DNA of 64,000 nt, taken from the NCBI GenBank assembly GCA_951406725.2, contig OX597815.1, forward strand, positions 13,144,001 to 13,208,000, written 5' to 3'. Under the pieces are notes generated by a model that saw only the letters and a program-made list of their open reading frames with translations, was not told the origin of the DNA and searched no databases. Below, piece by piece: positions 801-52,925 of the stretch. The position numbers and the translations under genes are program-made. This DNA comes from Octopus vulgaris. Lineage: Eukaryota. Every line of letters begins with the position of its first letter. Within the stretch, counting starts at the first letter, position 1.

Positions 801-3760
801 CACATTCTGACCAGGTGTGTAACGACATCTGATGGCTTAGCCGATACTGAAATACAGCGATATATCTATCTATCTACTTGTATATGTGTTTGCGTGCATG
901 TGTGCGTGCGTGTGTGTGTGTGTGTGTGTATGTGTGTGTCCCTTTGTATGTATGCATTTATACATATGTGTGTGTTTATATATGTTACATAGATAAAGTA
1001 AGCTTTTGTAAGCGCACGTTAATTTGAGATGCATAGGCGCATTTAAGCACATGCTGAGGAATATACTGACAATCTCCCATCTTAACTTCAACGATGATGG
1101 CCAAGGAAAAACCGCTGCCTTTTATTCGATAGAGAATTATCTAACATGGTCAAGTTGCCTTTATTACAACATCCCAACACGTCTAGTTATATGAAAGATA
1201 TGATTAAATGCTAGAATGTGTTTTCCATTTCATTTCTTATTTTATTGGTAATAGTCATTCTCAAGTTTGATTTGGTGAACATGGATATTCTAACTATGGC
1301 CCTGACGACCAAACGAAATGACACATGATTTATCCATTAAAAATTGTGTTCAGAAGTCAAAAATTACTGTCAAAGAGTTACGAGATGACTCTGGTTCATA
1401 AAATTGGAAATGTTTAAAGGTATAATACAGATGATGGTTGTTCGTATGAGTAAAAGAAGGTGCCTCATTCGCAATAGAAAATACAGTTACTAAAATCATC
1501 TTTCATAAGTACTCAAACTATAAAGTTGAATGTGTAATATATATCAACAACGTATAAGGCCATCTTTCGGAGTTTACTACTGTATTTGTTGATTCTTCAG
1601 TTATCTTCAATTATTTTTGAGTTTCTTCAATTATTTACTAAATCTTAAGAACATAGTGTAGTAATCCTGAAAAGGTATCGATACATGTTTAGAAATAAAG
1701 ACGGAAAATTAAGAAATACTAGAAATAGCAAAACTTTTTCACCTCGACGAAGAGCAGCCGGAGGCGAACGATTTTTTCTGTTTATATTCCTGCAGTTTCC
1801 TTCTTCTAATGACACTATGAAACTTGGACATACATGATTGCTGCGATATCAACTGACGGCAAAGCTGAACGTAGAGCCTAAATGTTTTTTTCCCTATTTA
1901 TTGTTCTTAGCAGCAAGTTTTAGAAAAGAAATATCGAACCTTATCATTTATGGAATGCTAAAACTAGAGCATCTGCAGGCAACGTATTCGCACCGTATTT
2001 GAAGAATTCTCATAACAGGTAAAGTTATTTTTAAGTAGTTACGTTATTCCAACTAGAGAGTATCTTCTAGCTATGATGTAAAAATCTTAAGTATCCACAG
2101 TTAGTGTAACTGAAAGAATCAGAATTGTGCAAATCACTTTAATACAAACAAAATGTTTCAATCTGGCTACGATAATCCTATATATTTTATGTTGCTTTTG
2201 TTTATTTGCATGGGCTTACGCAGAAGTGTTCTTTAAAATTTCTATCTTCCAAAAAGTGAACTATCCATATTTTATACTGAATAAGAATGATATGAAAGCA
2301 ATATATTTTGAGACGATGTTTGGTTCAAAAAGTTGTTACATAACATCTAAGCTTGAAAATTCCAAGCATCGTTCCTGCAAAAATGGAAGTCCTAAAAAGG
2401 AAGATCACTGTTCGTTAGGGGAATTCGTTCAATTTGTCACTAATTGATAGTACGAAAAAATTCAATTTGTTGGAAAAGAATTTTAAAAAAATAAATAAAT
2501 GACAAACTGCATTTTTTAATTAGAAAATGTGAATCTTACCATCTTAAAAACATTAGCAGGATCTAGGGTATCAGATGCTTTACTTAATCCTATTGCCACA
2601 CAAATAATTGTCAGGAGTCTTAATGGAAATTCGTTAATGTATCACTTATACATCATTTTATGAGATTAAATCCTTCTAAGTCGATAATTTATTGTAATGA
2701 CATTCGTTGTCTGAACACACATCGGTTGTCATCCATCCTTAAACCACAATTAGTTATAACAACTCTCCTTCTTGAAAAATTATTTTCATCCTGGGTAGCA
2801 TTGAAAACGAAGAAAATAATTCACATAAGCGTATCGATTCGGATAAGGAATTTGAACTTCACTGGAGTAAATGAACATTCTAGTCATGGGGGATTAATTA
2901 TTTTACATGTTAGAAAACATTTTTCCATGTAACAAACTTACATTTGTACACTGCTTGTATACGAATTTTGCAATATGGAAACTGAAAAAAACATTTTCAT
3001 ATTTTGTGCGAATTCCTGCGTGAATTAGGAAACGACAGCAAATAAATTCTTATATTTTATTTCCTTTCTTCAGTCTTTCTATTTCTTCTCTCTCTCGCAG
3101 TTTACTTTGTATAAATCTAAGATAATAAAAATTTGAATAATATAAACTGTTTTGAATTTGGTTAATACTATATATTTAACCAATTAACACAATTTATTAG
3201 TAACAAAAGTAGAGAGATAGGTGTGAGATAAACATATCTAAATGATTAATGAATTTGAGTCGCGATAGAATTAAATTTTGAAACATTTCCAAGGAGTGAT
3301 GGCACTGCCTTACAGCATGTCTTTCAAATATCTATTGTTTTGAGAAGCAGTTAAACAACGTTGGCATTGTTCATTGTGTTAGTGTAACATTTTTCAGTTG
3401 ATGTCGTAGAAAGTAAAAACTCAGAGTGATTGTTTAAAGCAACTATCTCTTCAGAAGAACTCTCTCATAAATCTATCTTAGAAATAAATGCTATAATGAA
3501 TACTTTCGAATGGACTCGGTGCCACATCACAAGCATTCTAGTCGCTTCGCATATAAAATATTTGGTTTCATGAGCAAATACTATGATAAAAAATAAAGCA
3601 AACCTCAGATTCTCCTGTTAATTATCTAAAAGTTTAAGAACTTACAGATAGTTTCAATATTCCAACGAAATTGCGAAAAAAAAAAATGGAATCATTAACG
3701 CTTCAGAGTATTTGCCGTTCTGTGAGATTTCTATCGTTTTTATGTATATATATATAGTCG

Positions 3761-4103
3761 CCTACACTCGCCTCCTTATGAGAGCTCAAAATCTCTCGTG
3801 GAAGCGCCATCCAACCAAAATGCAAATATATGGGAAACTACCACCTATGTCATCTCTTGTGAAAGGTAGGAGAGTCCAGTTTGCTGGACATTGTTGTAGA
3901 GCTGAAAAAGAGGTAATTTCTCCTCTTCTTCTCTGGAAGCCATCTACTCGCAATACCAGAGGACGCACACTCTCCTACCCTGATGTAATCTCCAGGGATA
4001 CAGGCATCCAGCAACAGGACCTCCGTAATGCCATGATGGACCGTGAAGTCTGGCGTAGCATGGTAAATTCCATTGTCTCGACCAAGGTCGAACAATGATG
4101 ATG
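3761..4103 (+). mobile_element. 5'-truncated RTE-like LINE 3' end with (TGA)n tail and 11-bp TSD
   Basis: Open frame YTRLLMRAQNLSWKRH...RRVQFAGHC...AMMDREVWR, then a TGATGATGA tail; ATATATAGTCG is repeated at 3750-3760 and 4104-4114. Confidence 0.85.
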
Positions 4104-9603: not shown

Positions 9604-10343
<740 letters not shown>

Positions 10344-10345
10344 TT

Positions 10346-10566
10346 TATGTGTTTGCGTTTGCCCCCCCCCAACATCACTTGACAACCGATGGTGGAATGT
10401 TTACGGCCAGGTAACTTAGCGGTTCGGCAAAATAGACCAAAAGAATATGTACTAGGCTTACAAAGAATAAGTCCTGGGGTCGATTTGCTCGACTAACGGC
10501 GGTGCGGTGCTCCAGCATGGCCACAGTCAAATAACTGAAACAATTAAAAGAGTAAAAGAGTAAAAG
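10346..10566 (+). mobile_element. 3' half of octopus-type tRNA/CORE-like SINE (family A)
   Basis: Matches the 3' halves of the copies at 22034 and 38964; (GTAAAAGA)n tail. Confidence 0.9.
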
Positions 10567-12744: not shown

Positions 12745-12976
12745 TTTTTTTACTTGTTTCAGTCATTTGACTGCGGCCATGATGGAGCACCGCCTTCAGT
12801 CAAGCAAATCGACCCCGGGACTTATTCTTTGTAAGCTCAGTACTCATTATATCGGTCTCGTTTGCCGAACCGCCAAGTTACGGGGACGTAAACACACCAG
12901 CATCGGTTGTCAAGCAATGCTAGGGAGACCATGTGGTTGGTTAGCAAGCTACTTTCACACAGCCACTCCTGCGCCT
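12745..12976 (-). mobile_element. SINE family A copy with internal deletion
   Basis: The tRNA head (GGCGCAGGAGTGGCTGTGTG) joins directly to the 3' half near 12927. Confidence 0.88.
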
Positions 12977-13917: not shown

Positions 13918-14296
13918 CAAATTAAATTTAAATGTTGAAGTGAAAGCCGTTCTATATTAAAAACAGCATTAGATTCTTGAGCAGTTGGGTAATTTCTCCC
14001 TATTGTATGATATTGTTCCTAAGTTGATGTGACAAGCATTTTTAATCTAGCTATTTTGCGGATTACTTTATCCTGCAGCAAGCCTTTCAGAAGTATGAAC
14101 TTTTTATCCTTTTCACACTAAGACCTTCGAAGCTTCTTTCCCGACATCTTATACTGCAGGTCATTCCAACAGCCAGGCAAACCAGCATTCCTACACGATC
14201 GATATGTAGGAAAATTTGTGGCACTAAAAGTACAGCTGTTTTCTGCGAGCAACGTCATGTCTTGTTTTACAGATGTAAAGTGAGAAAGGTAATATA

Positions 14297-15082
14297 TTTA
14301 TTTCTTATTACCCACAAGGGGCTAAACACAGAGGGGACAAACAAGGACAGACGAAGGGATCAAGTCGATTACATCGACCCCAGTGCGTAACTGGTGCTTA
14401 TTTAATCGACCCCGAAAGGGTGAAAGGTAAAGTCGACCTCGGCGGAATTTGAACTCAGAACGTAGCGACAGACGAAATACCAATTTCTTTACTACCCGCA
14501 AGGAGCTAAACACAGAGAGGACAAACAAGGGCAGACAGAAGGATTAATTCGATTACATCGACTCCCGTGTGTAACTGGTACTTATTTAATCGACCCCGAA
14601 AGGGTGAAAGGCAAATTCGACCTCGGCGGAATTTGAAATCAGAACGTAGCAGCAGACGAAATACCTATTTCTTTACTACCCGCAAAAAGCTAAACACAGA
14701 GAGGGCAAACAAGGACAGACAGACGGATTAATTCGATTACATCGACTCCAGTGCGTAACTGGTACTTATTTAATCGACCCCGAAAGGGTGAAAGGCAAAG
14801 TCGACCTCGGCGGAATTTGAACTCGGAACGTAGCAGCAGACTAAATACCTATTTCTTTACTACCCGCAAGGGGCTAAACACAGAGAGGACAAACAAGGAC
14901 AGACAAACGGATTAAGTCGATTACATCGACCCCAGTGCGTAACTGGTACTTTTTTAATTGACCTCGAAAAGATGAAAGGCAAAGTCGACCTCGGCGGAGT
15001 TTGAACTCAGAGCGTAGCGGCAGACGAAATACTGCTATGCATTTCGCCCGACATGCTAATGTTTCTGCCAGCTCGCCGCCAA
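14297..15082 (-). mobile_element. Tetrameric tRNA-derived SINE (family B, Nin-like domain) with one head and one 15-bp TSD
   Basis: Four ~183-bp units. The head GGCGGCGAGCTGGCAGAAAC occurs only at the 15080 end. GAGAAAGGTAATATA is at 14282-14296 and 15083-15097. Confidence 0.92.
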
Positions 15083-15871
15083 GAGAAAGGTAATATAGCT
15101 AGGTGTTGGGCGAAGGAAGAAGTCCCTCCAGGCGACACCTTTACAGAGACACCTTGGTGCTGGTGTATAAACCTGTATTGGTTTACAGGCGGAGCAGTAA
15201 CGGTATATCGCCTGTGCTACTGAAATATAATTCAGAAGAAGAAAGGGTGAAAGAAAGAGGCGGAAAGAAAGACTAGGTACTGAAATTTAGTTGAATGGTC
15301 ACTTCGTTTATAGGAACTTATCTCTTAGCATGACGGACTTGAATCAGAAAATATCAACGGTATACGCCCAAACACAAGGACACAGAAATACATACAGACA
15401 AACATACACACACACACACAAACACACACACATACCCTCCATTCACCCTCATATTGTTGACATAAAAATTGGTATCATCACACATTGTTATCATGCTGAT
15501 ATATTATAGCAATTGTTACCGATTAGTTATTCAAAAGACGATTGTATTGAGGTTGGTGTTCTAATTTCTAATGGTTTTCGTTTCGGCGATGGTGTTGGTA
15601 GTGTTGGTTGGTTGCGGGGGTTGCACGTTGCTCTTCCTAATTGTATTGTCGTAACTGTTACTTTCATGTAAATCCTCACTGACCTAAGATCAAAGACTTT
15701 TATTCAACATATACAATACAATAATGTACTGCATTAATTCATCTCGTTGTCTTTTATATTAGATACAATTCCTTATGTTTTTTCATACTAATGATGCTGA
15801 TCACTAAGGAGTTAGTGGCTTGATAATAACCGTCAATATATTGATGATAGCGGCGATGGACATGGTGAAGC

Positions 15872-22033: not shown

Positions 22034-22448
22034 GCGCAGGAGTGGCTGTGTGGTAAGTAGCTTGTCTACCAGCCACATTGTTCCAGGTTCAGTCCCACTG
22101 CGTGGCACCTTGAGCGAGTTTCTTCTACTATAGCCTCGGGACGACCAAAGCCTTGTGAGTTGATTTGGTAGACGGAAACTGAAAGAAGCCCGTCGTATAT
22201 ATGTATATATATATATATATATATACGTGTGTGTGTTTGTGTGTCTGTGTTTGTTCCCCTAGCATTGCTTGACAACCGATGCTGGTGTGTTTATGTCTCC
22301 GTCACTTAGCGGTTCGGCAAAAGAGACCGATAGAATAAGTACTGGGCTTACAAAAGAATAAGTCCATGGGTCGAGTTGCTCGATTAAAGGCGATGCTCCA
22401 GCATGGCCGCAGTCAAATGACTGAAACAAGTAAAAGAGTAAAAGAGTA
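22034..22448 (+). mobile_element. Full-length SINE family A (tRNA head, CORE-like segment, internal microsatellite)
   Basis: A box TGGCTGTGTGG, B-box-like GGTTCAGTCCC, GGCACCTTG(A/G)GC.AGT, internal (TA)n(TG)n, (GTAAAAGA)n tail; collinear with the copy at 38964. Confidence 0.93.
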
Positions 22449-24112: not shown

Positions 24113-24869
24113 ATGTTTATCAAAGTTAAAATGTGAAATCATTTATTAAAAGCAGATGTGTCTCCGAGGCTTCCACTCTTTCTGAAGGCAAACTTTTTTG
24201 TCTCACAGATGTGTCACCACCAACGCTGCATGTACACCACATCATACAAACACATATTCTCTTACTTTACTACAGAACACCCACGTCCTACAGTAACAGT
24301 AATTCTCCTTTTCCATTTCAAATGCACACCACATGTGAATACGTACATAAACACACACAAACACATACACATACATACACACACATGCATATGTACATAT
24401 ATATAAGGTGCGGTGGGAATGCATGTACAGATATTATTTTGCACCTGTAATGTACTAATTAAGTATATTATAAGTTTACTAATCAAAATTGTGCTTCATT
24501 CTATGTTAGCTGTCGTCATTTCTAAGTTTGATTTTATCGTAAAAATGTTTCTATGGCATTCACAGTCAGCAATAGGGTGTGGATAGTTTTGCCGTCGGAT
24601 GTGATGCTGATGGGAGGGCAATAACATTTGTAATATGCATATGTTTATCAAAGTTAAAATGTGAAATCATTTATTAAAAGCAGATGTGTCTCCGAGGCTT
24701 CCACTCTTTCTGAAGGCAAACTTTTTTGTCTCACAGATGTGTCACCACCAACGCTGCATGTACACCACATCATACAAACACATATTCTCTTACTTTACTA
24801 CAGAACACCCACGTCCTACAGTAACAGTAATTCTCCTTTTCTATTTCAAATGCACACCACATGTGAATA
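24113..24869 (+). repeat. Near-identical 229-bp direct repeat (24113-24341 and 24641-24869)
   Basis: Offset 528 bp; one mismatch seen (TTCCATTTC vs TTCTATTTC). ORFs 24133 and 24661 are near-identical duplicates. Confidence 0.95.
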
Positions 24870-25774
24870 ACTCCATATAGCGACTGAAAATTCTGCTAAA
24901 CTCCTAAATCAAACTAGAGAAAAATCATAGCTTGATGATCACAAGAAATGAAGATTTAAAGGTTAGGACTGAGACGTTGAGTACCAAATTTTCTTCACCC
25001 AAGACAAGTCAAGTGTGGATGTTTGGATGCCGAATGACAATGCAAGAAGAAAGTACGTTTAAGAAAAATGTACTTTCACTATGCATTATGTAAGAACAAG
25101 TAGAAGCACGTAAGAGTACATCTCGCGGAGGAAAAGGGCAATTTCCCGTGTGGTATCAATGTTCGCCGTACAGAGGGGATCAAATTGCTTGTCGTGCAGC
25201 TTTACATAATATGTGTCCTATATAATTATGTACTTGTTATCCACCTTACACATTGTCTATATTCTAAATTATAAGAAAATACAATTTTGAAAATTTACAA
25301 AATATTTCATTTTTTTCTCATAAGAAACAAGGAAATTCTTGATACATATGTGAATATACTATGTGACCCCCCACAAAATAGTGGCAGTACTTGAAATAAA
25401 GGTCATTTAATAAATTTTCTACTAATTCGCTGCTGATATCTTTCAATCCAAAATAGACTTTGAAATTGCTCCGATGATAATATGATACAATACTCACTCC
25501 ATACAAAGTTCACCAGCAACTGAGCCAAATATGATTGTATTTGTGAGAATCTCTAAATATATGTTTATATGTTCATATTGCTTCTAGGAATTACGTCAAC
25601 CCAATTAGGTACGTGTGCTACCCAATTTTACTCATGTATTGAATACTGGGAAGGTAAAGTATTTGTGTGCAATTTCATTGTGCTTGAATGAAAACATTTC
25701 TGAAATAATGAACGGGATGTAAAGTTGATTAATCGATGAATGTGAGATAGACACTGCTTGACATTATAGATTGT

Positions 25775-26130: not shown

Positions 26131-26197
26131 CCATAAGTTCAAATGCAAACAAAATCAACACGCATAATACGGTCTTTAAAATATATATATGGATTTA

Positions 26198-26431
26198 AGG
26201 CGGCGAGCTGGCAGAAACGTTAGCACGCCGGGCGAATTACGTAGCCGTATTTCGCCTGCCGTTACGTTCTGAGTTTAAATTCCGCCGAGATCGACTTTGC
26301 CTTTCATCCTTTTGGTGTCGATAAATTAAGCGCCAGTTACGCACTGGAGTCGATGTAATCGACTTAATCCGTTTGTCTATCCTTGTTTGTCCCTTCTATG
26401 GTTAGCCCCTTGTGGGTAATAAAGAAACAGA
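26198..26431 (+). mobile_element. SINE family B monomer
   Basis: Head GGCGGCGAGCTGGCAG, B-box-like GAGTTTAAATTCC, domain GCCTTTCATCC..GTCGATAAA. Confidence 0.92.
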
Positions 26432-27204
26432 TATGTATATGTATGTATATGTGCATGTCTTATATGTAGGCTTATGTGTATCTTTGTGTATATATGTATA
26501 TATATGTGTGTGGGTGTCTGTGTGTGTATACACCTTTTTCTTCCCCTACCTTTCTATCACTATATCTATCTTAGAAACCAATTAATTTCAACTCAATAAT
26601 TTTTAATTTTCATAGTTTTAGATTTTATTTTTTTTAGTTTGTAATTTACGTTTTAAATTTAAATTTTAATTTTTAATCATTTATCTCATATCATTTAATG
26701 GCTATTAAGCTTGAAATACAATTTTAAATATCTGGACTAAACTATTGTCTTTATAACTTTACCTAGATTGGCCTTCCACCTAATTCTACTGAGACTTTAA
26801 CGTTTGACCTCTGATCCTCATCAAATACAGAATATCTATATCATTGCCTTTAGTTTTATTTATTTACTTATATTATATTTGTATTATTTTTTACCTTGAT
26901 ACCACTATCTTATTTTTATTTTTCTTCCCTTTCTCCACTCTCCCATACACACTCGCTCACAAAACCCATTTATGTTATATATGACATTACTTTTTTTCTT
27001 TTATTTTATTATGTTTAATATATTTTTATTTATATTTTACTTAGTTTATTATATTCTTATTTTTACCCTTTTAACAATATTTTTTTTCTAATCTTTTCGC
27101 CTATCAGTCTTTCTCAATTTCTCCTCTTTCCCTCTCATACACCTCCTCACAAACCCATTTAGGTCTCTCATATTTTCTCCCTCTATATACTCAGATTTTT
27201 TTTT

Positions 27205-27420
27205 TTTACTATCCACAAGGGGCTAAACACAGAGAGGACAAACATAGACAAACAAAGCGATTAAGTCGATTACATCGACCCCAGTGCGTAACTGGTACTT
27301 AATTTATCGACCCCGAAAGGCAAAGTCGACCTCGGCAGAATTTGAACTCAGAACGCAACGGCAGACGAAATACGGCTACGCATTTCGCCCGGCGTGCTAC
27401 CGTTTCTGCCAGCTCACCGG
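27205..27420 (-). mobile_element. SINE family B monomer with A-rich tail
   Basis: Reverse complement of the 26198 copy; T run at 27196-27207; imperfect TSD TCTATATA(C/A)TCA. Confidence 0.92.
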
Positions 27421-27721
27421 CTTTCGATCTATATAATCATTTACAATGTGAATACATCATTCAGAGTACTTCTAAAATACTGCCTGAATTTACCTGGGAT
27501 TGTAACTAAAAACCTGTAACTCAATGGAAGTACTGACCAATATCCATATCGCATGGAAAAAGATGAATTTTGAACATTATACTCCTGCCTTTATTCTTCT
27601 AACTACTTTTCTTATTTATTCTGATATTTTACTCCTTTATACTTCTGTTTTATTACTTATAAACCGTGGATTCTCTTCCTTGTAAACTGTAAATTTTCCT
27701 CGTCTAAAATATTCATACGTT

Positions 27722-28090: not shown

Positions 28091-29495
28091 ACCTTGTTTA
28101 AAGTGGCACTCTGTACTTTCCAACATGTGGCGGCATGTGCCACAGTTAGGCCGACCGCATTTTCTCACTTTGGTTCTTTTGTTAATGGATAATGTCTTGC
28201 TTTGGTTAATGTTTTTTCAATGATTTCGGTTGCATTTTCCTCTTGATAATTTTGTGTGAGACTAACATTTTTTTCATTGTTGTATCTCCTGTGATATTGG
28301 GTAGATTTCGGGTGATAATGTTGAAGGCTTCGTTGTTTCGAGGTTTACATGTGGAAATTTATGGGAGTATTTTTAAGTCTGGTGTTGTGTTTCGGTTGAC
28401 TTCCCTTAGTGTTCGTATGTCTGTTTCCTTTGTTCGTTTAATCCCATCATTTGTTAATGATGTTGGGTAATTTCACTTGATTAGTATTGATCAGACTTCA
28501 AGGAGTCTTCGTTCCCGAGTATTGGTGTCCGAAACTATGGTACAGATTCTTTTCGCTAGGTTATAGGTTTATTAATTTTTATGCGTCTGGGGTGGCATGA
28601 GTTGAATAATATTATTGTTAAGAATATGTGGGTTTATAGAAGAGGTCTGTTTCGATGTGGTTATTGACTATTAGGATGTCAAGAAAAATGAGTTGTTTAT
28701 TGCTGTATCCCATGGTAAATTGTATGTTGCTATTGATATTTTGCAATCTTGGAGTTTGTCCTTGCTATTTTTCCAGCGTACGCATCACTTATCTAAATAC
28801 CGCTTCTAGTTCTTTAAATAGCAATCAAATGAGGCGTCATATTTTTGTAGAGATGATTGGTATATTTTAAGTTCTAGGTAACCCATTAGAATGTTCGAGA
28901 TAACTGGAGCGGCCCGGGTTCCCATCGCAATTCCACATTTTTGTCGATAGTAGAATGCATCGAACATGAAATAGTTGTTCACTGGGATTAATTCCAGTGC
29001 TGAGATTATGAATCTGTGGTAGATGAGTCCTAGGATCTCTTCTGGGTATTTTTCTAGCCAGAAGGTGATTGCTTTTATGCAATGATCATGCGGGATATTG
29101 GTGTACGGGTTCTCCACATCGAATGCTACTAACAGGGTTCCTTCATTCATTGCCTTCGGGAGGTGGTTAAGCATGTCTAAGCCACCCCTGATGAAACATT
29201 TCACATATTTTAGAAACGTTTTGAGTAAGATGTCGAGGAAAATGCTCAAACAGTGAGTTTCACAGCAGGGTCCGCAATGATGGGTCCTTGTTTGAGATAA
29301 GTAGCGGGAGGAACATTAAAGCATATGCTTCGAGAATCTTTGCAAGCTTTATAAATATGTACATTTTTGTATATTTTAGGTAATCCGTAGAATGGACTAG
29401 CCCCGTATTTAAAATTGGATAAATAGTCAATTTTTGTTTTAGTGAGGCCCTTTCCATGTATTTGAAGTAAGATGGATAAGTTTTTAAGTGTCTTA
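28091..29495 (-). mobile_element. Penelope-like retroelement RT pseudogene fragment
   Basis: ORF 28806-29249 has FDVENPYTNIP and RQKCGIAMGTRAAP. Frameshifted continuation gives RYLD, IQFTM..FLDI..TDLFYKPT..NSCHP and KCGRPNCGTC. Confidence 0.92.
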
Positions 29496-32151: not shown

Positions 32152-32887
32152 TATTAGGACATACATACATTGAAAGTGGTGACAGAGAGCATTAAAATAA
32201 AAAAAAAGAGCGTTAAATAAACAGAAGAACATAGTATAAGTGTGGAACAGGGTCATTTAAGAGAATATCGTCTTATAAGAATAACGTAGAGACAGATTTT
32301 GGAAAAGAATGTTGAAGAAGCTACTTGAAAATAGAGCAAATGATGGAAGGGAAGCACGGACTGATAAGCAAAAATTGAAGGGTAAAAAAGGGTGCCTACT
32401 CATGCAATATTTCGTCTAAATTTTGGTTCAACCTATTATAAATTGGAAGAAAATCACAAACATAAGAATGAGTCATGAATATTATACAAAGTCGAATACA
32501 GAATAAAAATTAGGAGCGTAGGGTGAAAAATGGGGAATACGAAAAAACATATGCGAATGAAATGGTAAAATTAGAGATGTCTTGATTCTGAAATAATTTA
32601 CTGTAGTAAAATCAATTTACTACCGATAAATTACCAATATTTGACAGAAGTAATATGAAGTCACTGACTGACTAAATACATAAACTATAGCCATTTAAAA
32701 TGAATTCATTTATTACCTAGAAATTCTTTGGCAAGATCAAATATATTTTATCATTACCGGTTTGATTTTTAAGAAAGAATTGCAGTAAAAATGTAAGCTT
32801 TGTAATAAGAAAATAAACTTATTGTAATGTTTTAAAAGACACACTAAATATTCTATTGCTATAAGATTTTATTATTAAATATTTGTA

Positions 32888-33620
32888 AAGCGGCGAGCTG
32901 GTAGAATCGGTAGAACACCGGGCGAAATGCGTAGCCGAATTTTGTCTGCCGTTACGTTCTGAGTTCAAATTCCGTCGAGGTCGACTTTGCCTTTCATCTT
33001 TTCGGGGTCGATAAATTACGTGCCAGTTACGCACCGGGGTCGATGTAATCGGCTTAATCCGTTTGTCTGTCCTTGTTTGGCCTTCCAGTGCTTAGCCCCT
33101 TGTGGGTAGTAAAGAAATAGGTATTTCGTCTGTCCTTACATACTGAGTTCAAATTTTACCAATGTTGTCGTTGATTGTTCATCTGTTTTGGTGTCGGTAA
33201 AGTAAGTACCAGTGAAACTAGGTAGTCGTTGTAATCGACGTAACCCCCCTCCCCTGAAATTGCTGGCCCTCTGCCAAAATTTGAAATCAGTATTAAATAT
33301 CTATAAACCGCCGAGCTGGAAGAAAAGTTAGAACACTTAGCGACATTTCATCGCTGAGTTCACATTCCACCGATGTGGAATTTGTATTTAATCATCTTGA
33401 AATCGGTAAAATAAGTTCCAGTCAAGTACTCAATCGACCTACCACTTCCCCTGAAATTGTTGGTCTTGTGCTAAAATTTGAAACCATTATAGAATATCTG
33501 TGTAAGACGTCGAAATGGCAGAGTCGTTTGAACGACAGATAAAATTCTGAACAGCAATTCGCCTATCTTTACGTTCTAATTTTAAATACCACAAAAGTCG
33601 GCTTTGCTTTTAATAGTTTC
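32888..33620 (+). mobile_element. SINE family B copy followed by tandem, more diverged units
   Basis: Monomer at 32888-33120, then a head-less unit starting GTATTTCGTC, then degraded headed units at about 33308 and 33508. Confidence 0.85.
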
Positions 33621-33633
33621 GAAAATAACATAT

Positions 33634-34029
33634 AGTGGCTGTGTGGTAAGTAGTTTGCTTGCCAACCTGTGGGTTCAGTGCCACTGTGTGGCACCTTGGG
33701 TAAGTATCTTCTACTATAGCCTCAGGCTATTCAAAGACTTTTGAGTGGATTTGGTAGATGAAAACTGAAAGAAGCCTTTCGTATATATAAATACATATCT
33801 ATTGTTTGTTTGTGTGTATGTGTGTATTTGTTCCCCGAACATCTCTTGACAACCGATACTGGTGTGTTTACGTCCCCGTAACTTAATGGTTTAGCAAGAG
33901 ACCGATAGAATAAGTACTAGGCTTACAAAGGATAAGTCCGCGGTTCGATTTGCTGGACTAAAGATGATGCTCCAGCATGGCACAGTCAAATGACTGAAAC
34001 AAATAAAAGAATGAAAGAATAAAAAAAGA
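33634..34029 (+). mobile_element. SINE family A, diverged copy
   Basis: Collinear with the copies at 22034 and 38964. Confidence 0.9.
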
Positions 34030-35494: not shown

Positions 35495-36076
35495 AAAACA
35501 AGTCAGAATAGAAAATGCTAAAATAATTTTATAAAGAACATTTCAGTACCGGTTTCAGTCTGAGGCTTTTTCAACTGTAATAATTAAATAATTAAATTTA
35601 GAAAAATTAAAAGGAACTCCTTCTCCTACCTTTTCCTTCCTAACCTTATCACTAATGCTTTTCATTATAACACCTACGCAAATTCTATGAACAAAACATT
35701 TAATAGATATATTTTCATGAATTGAACAGCAACTGCTAACCTCCACTGACCATTCAAAATACTACAATCATCGCACTCCCAAATTCTTCGTCTTCTTCCT
35801 CACCTTCTCCTCCTCTTTCTTCTTCTTCCGTACCAAGAATTCACAATGACCTCGAACCCACAAGAGTAAACAAGAGAGACAGAGACAGACAGAAACAAGG
35901 AAAAAACCACTTGTATTTGAACACTATACAAATATTTTTTTTAAAAACTTACCTTTTAATTTTTCTAAATTTAAGTATTCAATTGTTACAGTTAAAAATG
36001 TCTCAATGACTGAAACCGGTACTGAAATGTTCTTTATAAAATTATTTTAGCATTTTATATCTTGACTTGTTCTTTC
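35491..36076. mobile_element. TA-flanked element with ~125-bp inverted arms, each carrying a hammerhead-like motif
   Basis: Arms at 35491-35614 and 35952-36076; motifs at 35544-35577 (-) and 35989-36024 (+). Confidence 0.85.
35544..35577 (-). ncRNA. Minimal hammerhead motif with U3-A8 core
   Basis: CAG-TTGAAAA-AGcC-tca-GACT-GAA-ACCGGT-A-CTG; palindromic stem III, GUA triplet. Confidence 0.6.
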
Positions 36077-36106
36077 ATATATATCAACTCGTGTGTTTCA
36101 TTTCAT

Positions 36107-36155
<49 letters not shown>

Positions 36156-36200
36156 TATACACATATACAAATACATACACATATACACATATCTATATAT

Positions 36201-36253
<53 letters not shown>

Positions 36254-36271
36254 AACATATATATATATAAA

Positions 36272-36853
36272 ACATCTCCCCACACAATACAAGGTATCAT
36301 AAAAGTTGAAGCACCTCAAAGGGCAATCACAAAAAAGATAGATGGCATGACAGGCCTCGACTATTGGGGTCGACTAGAAAAGCTAAAACTCTATTCTCTC
36401 CAACGTCGTCGTGAGCGCTACATCATCTGCATGATGTGGAAAATATTCCATCAGCATTGCCCAAATGATGTTGGCATCACCTTTAAGGTACATCCAAGGC
36501 TTGGGCCCCGTGCCATCCGCCCAAAACAAAAATCGCACTATCATCTCATAACAACAATACGGCACAATTATTTCACCTCAATTGGCCCCGCTCTCTTTAG
36601 CATTACACCAAAACACATTAAAACAGAAACTGACCCTATAGGGTTCAAGAAGTCTTTGGACAGATTCCTTCAAGAAATCCCGGATAAACCCCCTACACCC
36701 GGATATGTCTCTGTAAACAATAACTCTCTACTTGAGTGGGCCATAGTGCCCAAATTCTGACTTGAAAGACTTCACCAGGTGGTGCTATTAAGTTAGACAT
36801 GGCCTGGGCCAATAATGGCCGAAACCTATCAAAGTATCAAAGTATCAAAGTAT
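36272..36853 (+). mobile_element. 5'-truncated CR1-group LINE 3' end
   Basis: Open frame [32 protein letters not shown]...GPALF...[16 protein letters not shown]; 3' UTR stem-loop and (TATCAAAG)n tail. Confidence 0.9.
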
Positions 36854-38963: not shown

Positions 38964-39128
38964 GGCGCAGGAGTGGCTGTGTGGTAAGTAGCTTGCTAGC
39001 CAAACTCATGGTTCCGGGTTCAGTCCCACTGCGTGGCACCTTGGGCAAGTGTCTTCTACTATAGCCTCGGGCCGACCAATGCCTTGTGAGTGGATTTGGT
39101 AGACGGAAACTGAAAGAAGCCTGTCATA

Positions 39129-39167
<39 letters not shown>

Positions 39168-39383
39168 ATGTTTGAGTGTCTGTGTTTGTCCCCCTAGCAT
39201 TGGTTGACAACCGATGCTGGCGTGTTTACGTCCCCGTCACCTAGCGGTTCGGCAAAAAGAGACCGATAGAATAAGTACTGGGCTTACAAAAGAATAAGTC
39301 CCGGGGTCGATTTGCTCGACTAAAGGCGGTGCTCCAGCATGGCCGCAGTCAAATGACTGAAACAAGTAAAATAAAAAAAAAAA
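38964..39383 (+). mobile_element. Full-length SINE family A
   Basis: tRNA head, GGCACCTTGGGCAAGT, internal microsatellite, A-rich tail. Confidence 0.94.
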
Positions 39384-40409: not shown

Positions 40410-40707
40410 AAGGCCATGTAGGGGGACATGGAGTTAAGTACAGGGTGGTGTTCATGTAAAGAGTTCAGGCCACTTGAGGTCCAGGGAGGCTTTGAACAAA
40501 GCGGTCGTCGGCATCTTCACCATCTCGTCTGGAACAAGCTGCCAGACGAGATGGTGAAGATGCCGACGACCGCTTTGTTCAAAGCCTCCCTGGACCTCAA
40601 GTGGTCTGAACTCTTTACATGAACACCACCCTGTACTTAACTCCATGTCCCCCTACATGGCCTTGCTATTTGCTTTTGAGCCAAATTAACTAACTAACTA
40701 ACTAACT
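40410..40707 (+). mobile_element. CR1 LINE 3' end with inverted self-duplication (123-bp hairpin) and (TAAC)n tail
   Basis: Arms at 40410-40532 and 40542-40664 with one mismatch. The forward part encodes WNKLPDEMVKMPTT..., as in the 42940 copy. Confidence 0.95.
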
Positions 40708-40816
40708 AAAAATTGCTCAGAATAGTTGTTGTTTTTCAAGTTGAGAGTGTTTGAAACAGTCGGTTAGCAGGCAGTGGATTTCCAAGAAATTTGTCCACAA
40801 GTTTGACCCGATTTTA

Positions 40817-41817: not shown

Positions 41818-42939
41818 TACAGCTTTGCAGAAATAACTGTTAAAATTGAACTGCATTCTTCAAAATTGCTCAGCATATTTGTTGTTCAATTTGAGAATAT
41901 TTGAAAGCTAGTCGGTTCAAAATTTGCAGTAAGTATTAGTACAAGGTACAATTATTACTTGCTGTTATAGCAAGTTGATGTAGGTAGTTTCTCGCGTTCC
42001 CTTTCGTCTTTTAGTTCAGGCAATTGAAAAAAACCGCATTGCTTATTGGACGACCCAATAATTGAGATTACAATTAACGTATCTGGATAATGTTTTCCTC
42101 TTTGACAATAAACATTCGTTTTTCTTTTCGAGTCCAAATCAAAGAGAACGGAGAAAATTGTCGGAATAAGTGTTCTGAATATCTTAGTTTTTAATGTATT
42201 TTGGGTTAATTTACTTAGTTGATATGGTTTTTACAGGTAGTGAACATGGGTAAAAAAATATTTTTATTCGCAAATGAAAATGAGTAAATATTACTCATTG
42301 TGCTATATTTAATTATAGTTTATCTTTGCCATATTTTGAAACTAGAAGGTGAAGAACCAGAATATATATTGCTTAACACTGTTTTCTTCTTGAATAAATA
42401 AACCCGCAAATCTAGAATTTTGCAGTCTTTACAAATTAAAACATGCATATGATATGAAAGTGAACGCTATAAAAGGAATTTTGGGTGAGGAACTCAAAAT
42501 AATATATTCAAGTCAACACTTTCTCGCACTTACGGAAATTCCAGTTGGACAACTGGCATTTCTGTAACACAATTCTATAGACAGTGGAAATTAACGATGA
42601 TGGAGTTCGCACAAAATGAACAGAGCTGAATTCAGAGGATATCAAAGTAATTTCTGGATTAAACCCCAAAATAAGATTTCTTCCTTCTTCAACACAATAC
42701 ACCGGGAAATATAAATACAAATAATTGCACATACCATACAAAGCATATATAATTATATATATGTGAATATTATTGTTAATTTAATGTATACATTGCCTAT
42801 ACCTTGTCATAACATACTGACTAGCAGATAAAAATCATTAATGTGACTTTTATCCTTATATTCTATTATGAATTAATATATACATTTTAAAAAAAAATAA
42901 TTTACTTATTTTACAGAATAACATATACTGCATGACTAT

Positions 42940-43443
42940 ACATATATCTCCTCAAAGACATACAGCATCTCGAAAGAGTCCAGAAGTTGGCTACCCGCAT
43001 GGTTCTTGGTCTCAAGAATTTGTCTTATGAAGAAAGGCTGAAGACGCTCGACCTTTATTCTTTAGAAAAACGACGACGCCGTGGTGATCTCATTCTTGCT
43101 CACAACATCATAAGCGGAAAGTGTAACCTCTCGAAAGAGCTGTTCTTCACTCCTGCTCCAGAGCGTCGGCTGCGGGGTCACTCCAAAAAGCTCCATCTGC
43201 GACGATTTCATCTCAATCGAAGGAGGGGGGCTTTCTCCGTCCGGGTTGCGGATCCGTGGAATAAGCTGCCGGACGAGATGGTGAAGATGCCGACGACCGT
43301 TCGGTTCAAAGTCTCCCTTGACCACAAGTGGCCTGAACTCTTTACATGAGCACCACCCTGTACATAACTCCATGGCCTCCTACATGGCCTTGCTTTTTGC
43401 TTTTTGAGCCAAAATTAACTAACTAACTAACTAACTAACTAAC
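42940..43443 (+). mobile_element. 5'-truncated CR1 LINE
   Basis: LERVQKLAT..SYEERL..LEKRRRRGDLI..RGHSKKL..FSVRV..WNKLP..FKVSLD; (TAAC)n tail. Confidence 0.95.
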
Positions 43444-52810: not shown

Positions 52811-52925
52811 TTTTTATTCTTTTATTTGTTTCAGTCATTTGACTGAAGCCATGCTGGAGCACCGCCTTTTAGTCGAAGAAATCGATCCATGGACTTTTTC
52901 TTCCCACAGGGCCACGGCTGCGCCT
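52811..52925 (-). mobile_element. SINE family A, heavily internally deleted
   Basis: A ~20-bp head remnant is joined to the terminal ~90 bp. Confidence 0.75.

What the first reader, a model, noticed from the sequence alone, without database searches (positions are those of the whole stretch)
14282..15097. SINE tetramer inserted as one event, with the same internal junction at another locus
Seen: one tRNA head plus four ~183-bp bodies inside a single 15-bp TSD. Each extra unit restarts inside the head, past the A box, at the junction AAAGAAAT(A/T)G|GTATTTCGTC. The same junction occurs at 33111-33130. Inference: the template was multimeric, either from a tandem master locus, from repeated template jumping at a fixed point, or from rolling-circle copying of a circularised SINE RNA.
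Basis: partly seen in the sequence, partly recalled or inferred. Interest (0 to 1): 0.75.

Follow-up and report, generated by a model that had tools for sequence, protein, structure and literature searches.

The report
Octopus SINE tandem array, shared junction
A short jumping-gene copy in an octopus-type genome carries four repeats of its own body joined at a fixed point that recurs elsewhere; it most likely arrived as a short multimer and then grew by ordinary DNA duplication, not by copying round an RNA circle.

Summary
In detail: on the minus strand, one Pol III-type head plus four 184-bp units lie inside a perfect 15-bp target-site duplication, with three copies of one junction and a fourth at 33111-33130. 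The element is an Octopus SINE: 5 of 5 named database hits are O. bimaculoides.

The interpretation needs correcting in three ways.
1. The units are not a star. Units 2 and 3 share 5 derived sites, so at least one unit came from a later DNA duplication or conversion. This rejects one-pass rolling-circle copying.
2. The second locus is a heterodimer: after the junction comes an older subfamily with a different tail, which one circle cannot supply.
3. No ribozyme was found, and the array starts with a head that a unit circle lacks.

Best reading: a junction-bearing linear multimer inserted by LINE machinery and expanded afterwards by unequal exchange. The architecture TSD-(SINE)n-TSD with head-truncated repeats is already described in a clam and in squamates.

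What remains unusual: the same junction occurs on two subfamily backgrounds, it sits at the apex of the head hairpin, and it is the only site in the monomer complementary (6 bp) to the tail. That hints at stem-guided RNA ligation, which is untested.

The parts
15083..15097 (-). target-site duplication, 5' copy (15 bp, identical to 14282-14296)
15033..15082 (-). single SINE head with A-like box starting at 15070
15021..15050 (-). upper stem of the predicted head hairpin; the unit restart (15032) lies just 3' of its 4-nt apical loop
   Evidence: 4 copies, 0 of 63 pairs with compensatory change
14849..15032 (-). unit U1 (184 bp; B-like box 15006-14996, body, A-rich tail)
14665..14848 (-). unit U2; shares 5 derived sites with U3
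14481..14664 (-). unit U3; B-like box altered by one change
14297..14480 (-). unit U4; its tail end differs from U1-U3 and abuts the TSD
14839..14858 (-). junction U1|U2 (1 mismatch)
14655..14674 (-). junction U2|U3 (0 mismatches)
14471..14490 (-). junction U3|U4 (1 mismatch)
14282..14296 (-). target-site duplication, 3' copy
32888..33120 (+). second locus: head plus one young unit of a different subfamily type (differs from all four array units at unit positions 16, 77, 80)
33111..33130 (+). second-locus junction, identical 20-mer
33121..33290 (+). headless old-type body with a different 3' tail; first 12 nt match the young majority (0/12 differences), positions 13-120 differ at 32/108
32873..32889 (+). 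17-mer repeated (15/17) at 33291-33307; TSD-like, flanks head + young unit + old body
26197..26430 (+). monomeric family copy, used as outgroup
27197..27423 (-). monomeric family copy, used as outgroup

Best explanation
This is a SINE-derived tandem array built in two stages.

Stage 1 (inferred): a linear Pol III transcript that already held the tail-to-position-51 junction (head-unit-unit, perhaps three units) was reverse-transcribed at a target nick by a LINE enzyme, which left the 15-bp TSD. Only the first unit has an A box, so such a multimer is transcribed as one RNA from its 5' end. The junction is a family-level feature, made once or rarely at the apex of the head hairpin and handed on by junction-bearing templates.

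Stage 2 (DNA-level duplication or conversion is shown; that it happened at this locus is inferred): misaligned exchange between neighbouring units copied the junction-spanning segment, giving a middle unit. That unit gathered 5 changes and was then duplicated into U2 and U3.

The same internal homology lets a junction-bearing copy join in register to an older family member, which gives the heterodimer at 33111.
For: - TSD around the whole array.
- U2+U3 clade, support 97/94, the only strong fork of 4; distance U2-U3 11/175 against 16-19/175 for the other within-array pairs.
- Star model rejected except under an extreme setting.
- Reciprocal mosaic: U2, U3, U4 share position 61; U1, U2, U3 share 147, 167, 173. 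The array state at 61 is absent from 11 of 11 protein fragments that show the site, and the array state at 167 from 3 of 3.
- U1-U3 end like the unit at 33120, not like U4.
- No T4 run in the majority unit, so Pol III read-through is possible.
- Junction on two subfamily backgrounds in the window and, about 4 nt shorter, in database fragment P0013.
- Same architecture ascribed to unequal recombination in squamates (PMC10702118, parts 1-4 of 5 read); TSD-(SINE)n-TSD arrays described in a clam (PMC11481361, section 15 and passages read).
Against: - The window cannot tell duplication here from duplication in a source locus: a 15/15 TSD has probability 0.24 or 0.39 under the two ages.
- Private changes are similar in all four units (6, 5, 6, and about 7 outside the tail end), which fits a four-unit insertion slightly better.
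- The mosaic rests on 4 sites, two of which (147, 173) vary among outside copies.
- No second intact homodimer was seen in the window.
- The junction is rare in the database sample: 1 of 21 fragments that cross position 1.
- One fragment (P0004) has a different junction further into the head.
- Each unit holds one TATTT and two TGTTT, partial terminators in HeLa assays (42% and 20%, PMC8466645 passages), so long transcripts may be scarce.
- No LINE partner was identified.
Confidence: 0.5

Rival explanations
1. Tandem master: the array reached four units by DNA duplication at another locus and then retrotransposed here as one tetramer.
For: One TSD around all units; similar private loads in all four units; no T4 run in the majority unit.
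Against: The array states at positions 61 and 167 were seen in 0 of 11 and 0 of 3 protein fragments and in none of the outside window copies that hold the sites (2 for 61, 3 for 167), so there is no sign of sister copies. About 12 weak terminator motifs would have to be read through (efficiency extrapolated from mammals).
Confidence: 0.2
2. In-register addition: a monomer (head + U4) inserted first with the TSD, and junction-bearing units were added later between head and body by homology (cDNA- or DNA-templated conversion, or integration of a unit circle), then duplicated.
For: The second locus has this form: young tract from about -18 to +12 past the junction, then an old-type body (0/12 vs 32/108, Fisher p 0.035; young unit vs old body p 0.0002), with a TSD-like 17-mer around head and old body. 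U4 ends differently from U1-U3.
Against: All four units share subfamily states at 16, 77 and 80 that the 3 outside young units lack, and U4 shares position 61 with U2 and U3. Whether the head at 32888 is old or young is unresolved (6/31 differences; p 0.21 vs young, 0.36 vs old), and its shared variants with the neighbouring old copy depend on the alignment.
Confidence: 0.17
3. Repeated reverse-transcriptase jumps or repeated RNA joining among different family RNAs during one insertion, always at the hairpin apex.
For: Explains the heterodimer directly; the restart sits at the hairpin apex; U1, U4 and the U2/U3 pair are almost as far apart as independent copies (16-19/175 against 17-28 to outside units).
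Against: Independent RNAs would not share the rare states at 61 and 167 across three units. Three jumps in a row at a junction seen in 1 of 21 sampled fragments is improbable.
Confidence: 0.07
4. Rolling-circle reverse transcription of a 184-nt circular RNA laid down all four units at once.
For: Exact unit-length repeats with one junction; the unit's two ends form a 6-bp complement found nowhere else in the monomer (about 1% by chance), as a ligation substrate would.
Against: Non-star units; a head that the circle lacks; heterodimer at 33111; no Rfam ribozyme; no hammerhead core 7-mer in any family copy; junction folds are no more stable than shuffles (z -0.47 to +0.79).
Confidence: 0.04
5. 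Assembly artefact or chance.
For: The region is repeat-rich (90 TRF rows).
Against: Units differ by 6-11% as substitutions with a tree structure; intact TSD; junction at a second locus.
Confidence: 0.02

Closest known systems
TSD1-(SINE)n-TSD1 arrays of the blood clam Scapharca broughtonii (PMC11481361; section 15 and passages read)
   Same: Mollusc; one TSD pair around the array; first SINE with a full head, later units with the same head truncation, last unit with a full tail; more than 3 units.
   Different: There the first and inner units are also cut at the tail. Here every unit keeps the full tail, and the junction recurs at another locus on another subfamily and joins unlike bodies. The passages read do not report a shared junction across loci.
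SINE-derived satellites (sSat) of squamates (PMC10702118; parts 1-4 of 5 read), above all sSat3Ati2 (179 nt: end of head, body, LINE-derived region) and the uncommon form with both SINE termini
   Same: Unit shorter than the SINE and, in snakes, keeping box B; short arrays of 4-5 units; the same unit boundaries at many loci; locus-specific subvariants; ascribed to unequal recombination.
   Different: The sSat definition counts at least four middle monomers (here two). Those authors found no true dimeric SINEs and the parts read do not discuss TSD-flanked multimers; long arrays are subtelomeric, which was not testable here.
Head-to-tail SINE multimers and complex SINEs (B2 and Dip multimers, PMC8466645 passages; Alu-type dimers, PMC3531059 passages)
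   Same: Same-orientation tandem copies; open question of sequential insertion versus a dimeric template.
   Different: Those units are full-length or nearly so; here the extra units lack the first 50 nt at a fixed point.
Non-LTR retrozymes (PMC7761336 passages; bioRxiv 10.64898/2026.07.22.740005 passages)
   Same: Tandem units of 150-300 bp in animals, molluscs included; proposed multimeric cDNA from a circle.
   Different: Retrozymes carry a hammerhead in each repeat and have no Pol III head in front; none was found here.
U6/L1 chimeras made by RtcB ligation (PMC6789731; abstract and start of introduction read)
   Same: A full Pol III RNA joined to a 5'-truncated RNA before retrotransposition, as the novel reading proposes here.
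   Different: There the L1 partner is variably truncated; here the point is fixed and both partners belong to one family. No ligation evidence exists for this element.
Octopus tRNA-derived SINEs OK, OR1, OR2 (Ohshima and Okada 1994, seen only as a reference) and 'Twitch' (name recalled)
   Same: Abundant Octopus SINE; fragments are caught in O. bimaculoides gene models.
   Different: No reference sequence could be compared, so the family name is not established.

Membership tests
tRNA-derived SINE | short, interspersed, non-coding repeat | tested here: met
   About 234 bp; copies at 4 young loci plus old-type copies in 64 kb; ORFs under 80 aa within the array, no Pfam match for the junction-spanning one
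tRNA-derived SINE | head with Pol III A and B boxes, derived from a tRNA | tested here: inconclusive
   A-like and B-like motifs present, strict patterns fail; no ARAGORN or Rfam tRNA match; the head folds as a rod, not a cloverleaf
tRNA-derived SINE | variable-length TSD and A-rich tail (LINE-type insertion) | tested here: met
   15-bp TSD; weaker TSD-like repeats at other copies
tRNA-derived SINE | 3' end shared with a partner LINE | not testable with these tools
   No other window sequence matches the tail; no Octopus repeat library available
TSD-(SINE)n-TSD array (clam type) | one TSD pair, full first head, equal head truncation in later units | tested here: met
TSD-(SINE)n-TSD array (clam type) | first and inner units truncated at the tail | tested here: not met
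   U1-U3 keep the whole tail
SINE-derived satellite (sSat) | tandem unit is part of a SINE and shorter than it | tested here: met
   184 of 234 nt
SINE-derived satellite (sSat) | at least four middle monomers | tested here: not met
   two middle units
SINE-derived satellite (sSat) | many loci with the same unit; subtelomeric bias | not testable with these tools
   No genome available; junction seen at 2 window loci and in 1 of 21 database fragments
non-LTR retrozyme | hammerhead or other self-cleaving ribozyme in each repeat | tested here: not met
   Rfam gives only two sub-threshold osmY matches, E 1.4 and 4.5; 0 of 35 window matches of the core 7-mer fall in a family copy
non-LTR retrozyme | unit-length circular RNA in vivo | not testable with these tools
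   needs RNA data
true complex (dimeric) SINE family | many independent TSD-flanked insertions of the same multimer | tested here: inconclusive
   One TSD-flanked homo-array, one heterodimer with a 15/17 flanking repeat, one database fragment without flanks
Octopus OK / Twitch SINE | identity to the published consensus | not testable with these tools
   PMC4795812 not held; the 1994 paper seen only as a reference

The most novel reading that the evidence does not exclude
The junction is made again and again at the RNA level. The SINE RNA is cut at the apical loop of its head hairpin; the freed 5' end pairs over 6 bp with the 3' tail of a family RNA, and an RtcB-type ligase seals them. In trans this gives linear head-unit-unit RNAs, including heterodimers of unlike subfamilies, which then retrotranspose; in cis it gives a 184-nt circle without any ribozyme. 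The SINE would thus seed its own tandem arrays and swap tails between subfamilies by structure-guided ligation.
Probability: 0.13. Interest if true: 0.8.

Novelty: new variant of a known kind. Interest (0 to 1): 0.4.

Why it matters
SINEs make up 11.6% of the O. vulgaris assembly (PMC13282606, parts 1-2 of 3 read). Whether SINE multimers arise from dimeric templates or by later insertion and recombination is stated as unknown for B2 (PMC8466645, passage read). This locus shows that one TSD and one uniform junction do not prove one-step insertion: the units keep a record of later DNA duplication. The fixed junction on two subfamily backgrounds and the heterodimer give a genome-wide, purely computational test of how SINE-derived satellites are seeded and how SINE tails are exchanged. 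If the junction is re-made by RNA ligation, it would extend RtcB-type chimera formation from U6/L1 to a SINE acting on itself. Without that, it is an octopus example of a described repeat architecture.

Tried and rejected
Rolling circle in one pass: rejected by the star test, the heterodimer and the lack of a ribozyme.

Back-splicing, suggested by AG|GT at the junction: rejected by inspection. In monomers the unit start follows CC or CA, not AG, and the unit end is not followed by GT.

A specially stable junction hairpin: four junction windows fold no better than shuffles; the whole array z +1.02, a monomer z -1.57; no covariation in 4 copies.

That the head at 32888 is the old copy's own head: inconclusive. 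Shared-variant counts with the neighbours gave P 0.03 to 1 and depend on gap placement. An upstream extension of the old array was not convincing.

Counting junction copies outside the window through spurious translations: the first search found nothing; later ones gave 25 proteins in all. One search printed 28 rows from 24 of them; 5 cover the tail only and 2 stop at or before position 1, leaving 21 that cross it. Of these, 20 fit the head better (five by 6 score points or fewer) and 1 the junction. The query spanned the junction, and copies with stops are invisible, so this is a rough sample. A probable junction in P0018 did not pass the score cut. The organism of the 20 unnamed fragments is not known.

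Dating by TSD identity: uninformative.

Ten literature searches showed no description of this junction or of such arrays in Octopus. Most subscription papers, Repbase/Dfam entries, the Zenodo library of PMC13282606 and the supplements of PMC10702118 and PMC11481361 were not seen and may hold it.

Full report
What is there. On the minus strand, 15082 to 14297 holds a 50-nt head followed by four 184-bp units. A perfect 15-bp direct repeat flanks it at 14282-14296 and 15083-15097; 12 of 4,855 random flank pairs reach that length. Each extra unit restarts at element position 51, between an A-like box (15070) and a B-like box (15006); B-like boxes are intact in U1, U2 and U4. The 20-nt junction occurs three times in the array and once at 33111-33130, against 0.01 expected. 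The tRNA origin of the head is not confirmed: ARAGORN and Rfam find nothing and strict box patterns fail.

Family and host. The window has two monomers (26197-26430, 27197-27423), a compound locus from 32888, and older copies with a different tail. Antisense translations of the unit match fragments caught in gene models; all 5 named hits are Octopus bimaculoides. The window's own species is not established. The family may be the published OK or Twitch SINE (recalled names; no sequence could be compared).

The units are not a star. Against the three outside young units, U2 and U3 share derived bases at positions 14, 102, 117, 127 and 161; the other five pairs share none. Under a star model, any pair sharing five or more came up in 0 of 20,000 runs with uniform rates, 2 with CpG x3, 133 with CpG x10, 23 and 126 with CpG x3 plus gamma 1 or 0.5, and 2,089 only with CpG x10 plus gamma 0.5; the measured CpG ratio is 0.83. 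The tree gives U2+U3 support 97/94, the only strong fork of four. So at least one unit arose by later DNA duplication or conversion.

A reciprocal pattern fits growth from a dimer: U2, U3 and U4 share position 61, while U1, U2 and U3 share 147, 167 and 173. The array states at 61 and 167 are absent from 11 of 11 and 3 of 3 protein fragments showing those sites. This rests on four sites, two of them variable in the family. Branch lengths of 0.04 to 0.07 would mean roughly 11-20 million years at the rate used in PMC13282606, near the SINE burst reported there at 18 million years (inference; species unknown).

The junction was not made locally. U1-U3 end like the unit at 33120, whereas U4 ends differently next to the TSD. 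The unit before the second junction differs from all array units at positions 16, 77 and 80, so the junction either predates that split or recurs. One database fragment (P0013) crosses from unit start to tail at the same point, about 4 nt shorter; 20 of 21 crossing fragments run into the head instead, and P0004 shows a different junction deeper in the head. The junction is therefore real outside this locus but is a minority form in a small, biased sample.

The second locus is a heterodimer. After the junction, 12 nt match the young majority exactly, then positions 13-120 differ at 32 of 108 sites against 12 of 120 in the young unit (p 0.0002), and the tail is of the old type (local score 11 to the young tail, 53 and 30 to two old tails). 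A 17-mer (15/17) flanks head, young unit and old body, and two more old copies follow head to tail. One circle cannot give two different bodies. Either a junction-bearing young sequence was joined in register to an old copy, or two different RNAs were joined before insertion. Whether the head there is old or young could not be settled.

No ribozyme. Rfam gives only two sub-threshold matches, and none of 35 window matches of the hammerhead core falls in a family copy. A unit circle would also lack the head that starts this array.

What is unusual. In the consensus fold of four copies the head is one long hairpin, and the restart lies just 3' of its apical loop (no covariation support). The only 6-bp perfect complement of the tail within the monomer is the restart site, which a random 9-mer gives in about 1% of trials; this was noticed after the fact. 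The junction windows fold no better than shuffles. The restart also begins with a TATTT motif, a partial Pol III terminator in mammalian assays (PMC8466645, passages), so transcripts of a multimer may end just past a junction and carry a 3' end homologous to every family copy (inference). RtcB is known to join a Pol III RNA to a 5'-OH RNA before retrotransposition (PMC6789731, abstract). These points make RNA-level joining at the apex a live but untested origin for the junction.

Mechanism. Most likely (0.5): a linear junction-bearing dimer or trimer was inserted by target-primed reverse transcription and then expanded in place by unequal exchange. Shown: structure, TSD, non-star history, heterodimer, lack of ribozyme. 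Inferred: the size of the first insert, the place of the duplications, Pol III read-through, the LINE partner. Rivals: tetramer master (0.2), in-register addition to a monomer (0.17), repeated jumps among RNAs (0.07), one-pass rolling circle (0.04), artefact (0.02). TSD identity does not separate the first two, and the even private loads lean slightly to the master.

Comparison with what is known. TSD-(SINE)n-TSD arrays with equally head-truncated units are described in a clam (PMC11481361, section 15), and SINE-derived satellites with a unit of end-of-head, body and tail in squamates (PMC10702118, parts 1-4 of 5). This array works like those. It differs in keeping full tails in all units, in sharing an exact junction across subfamilies, and in joining unlike bodies. 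It fails the retrozyme test. Ten searches showed no description for Octopus; repeat databases, subscription papers and most supplements were not seen. Papers read as passages only: PMC4758252, PMC3531059, PMC12988792, PMC9115989, PMC7761336, PMC8967140, PMC3024322, PMC8466645 and bioRxiv 10.64898/2026.07.22.740005; the one supplement of PMC13282606 was searched.

Verdict. Real feature; new variant of a known kind; interest 0.4. The circle reading of this tetramer is not supported. The most novel reading left open, stem-guided ligation of SINE RNAs, has probability about 0.13 and would merit 0.8.

Noticed in passing
window 33308-33630: Two more old-type copies of the SINE follow the second locus head to tail, each behind a related AT-rich spacer; database fragments P0003, P0008, P0012 and P0021 also seem, by eye, to hold two copies in tandem.
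   Followed up: partly
window 14467-14480 and 33121-33134: The first 14 nt of U4 and of the old body after the second junction are identical, including a T at position 13 that U1-U3 lack. Unexplained.
   Followed up: no
P0017, P0020, P0021 (database fragments): In 3 of 5 tail-only rows the match runs 3-8 nt on into the junction continuation, as if some single copies ended just past a junction. Weak; local alignments extend by chance.
   Followed up: partly
window flanks of 15082, 26197, 27423, 32888: The TSD or TSD-like flanks are all rich in TA steps where the tail would prime, suggesting a preference for TA-rich targets.
   Followed up: no
window 24113-24349 and 24641-24877: 237-bp direct repeat at 98% identity around a different repeat (24368-24642); a recent local duplication.
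   Followed up: no
window 10290-10560, 12745-12929, 22034-22448, 33634-34021, 38965-39379, 52811-52902: A second interspersed family, 75-91% alike, often next to (TA)n runs.
   Followed up: no
window 28806-29315 (-): 169-aa frame with a weak reverse-transcriptase match (PF00078, E 6e-4, below cut-off). Frames at 3652-4098, 36026-36760 and 42936-43349 look like LINE C-terminal remnants (recalled resemblance; no relevant Pfam match).
   Followed up: partly
window 40410-40709 and 43257-43438: Two adjacent segments match the same region at 91%, one inverted and one direct.
   Followed up: no
P0001, P0022-P0025: Antisense pieces of this SINE are built into five O. bimaculoides protein models; likely annotation errors or exonisation.
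   Followed up: no
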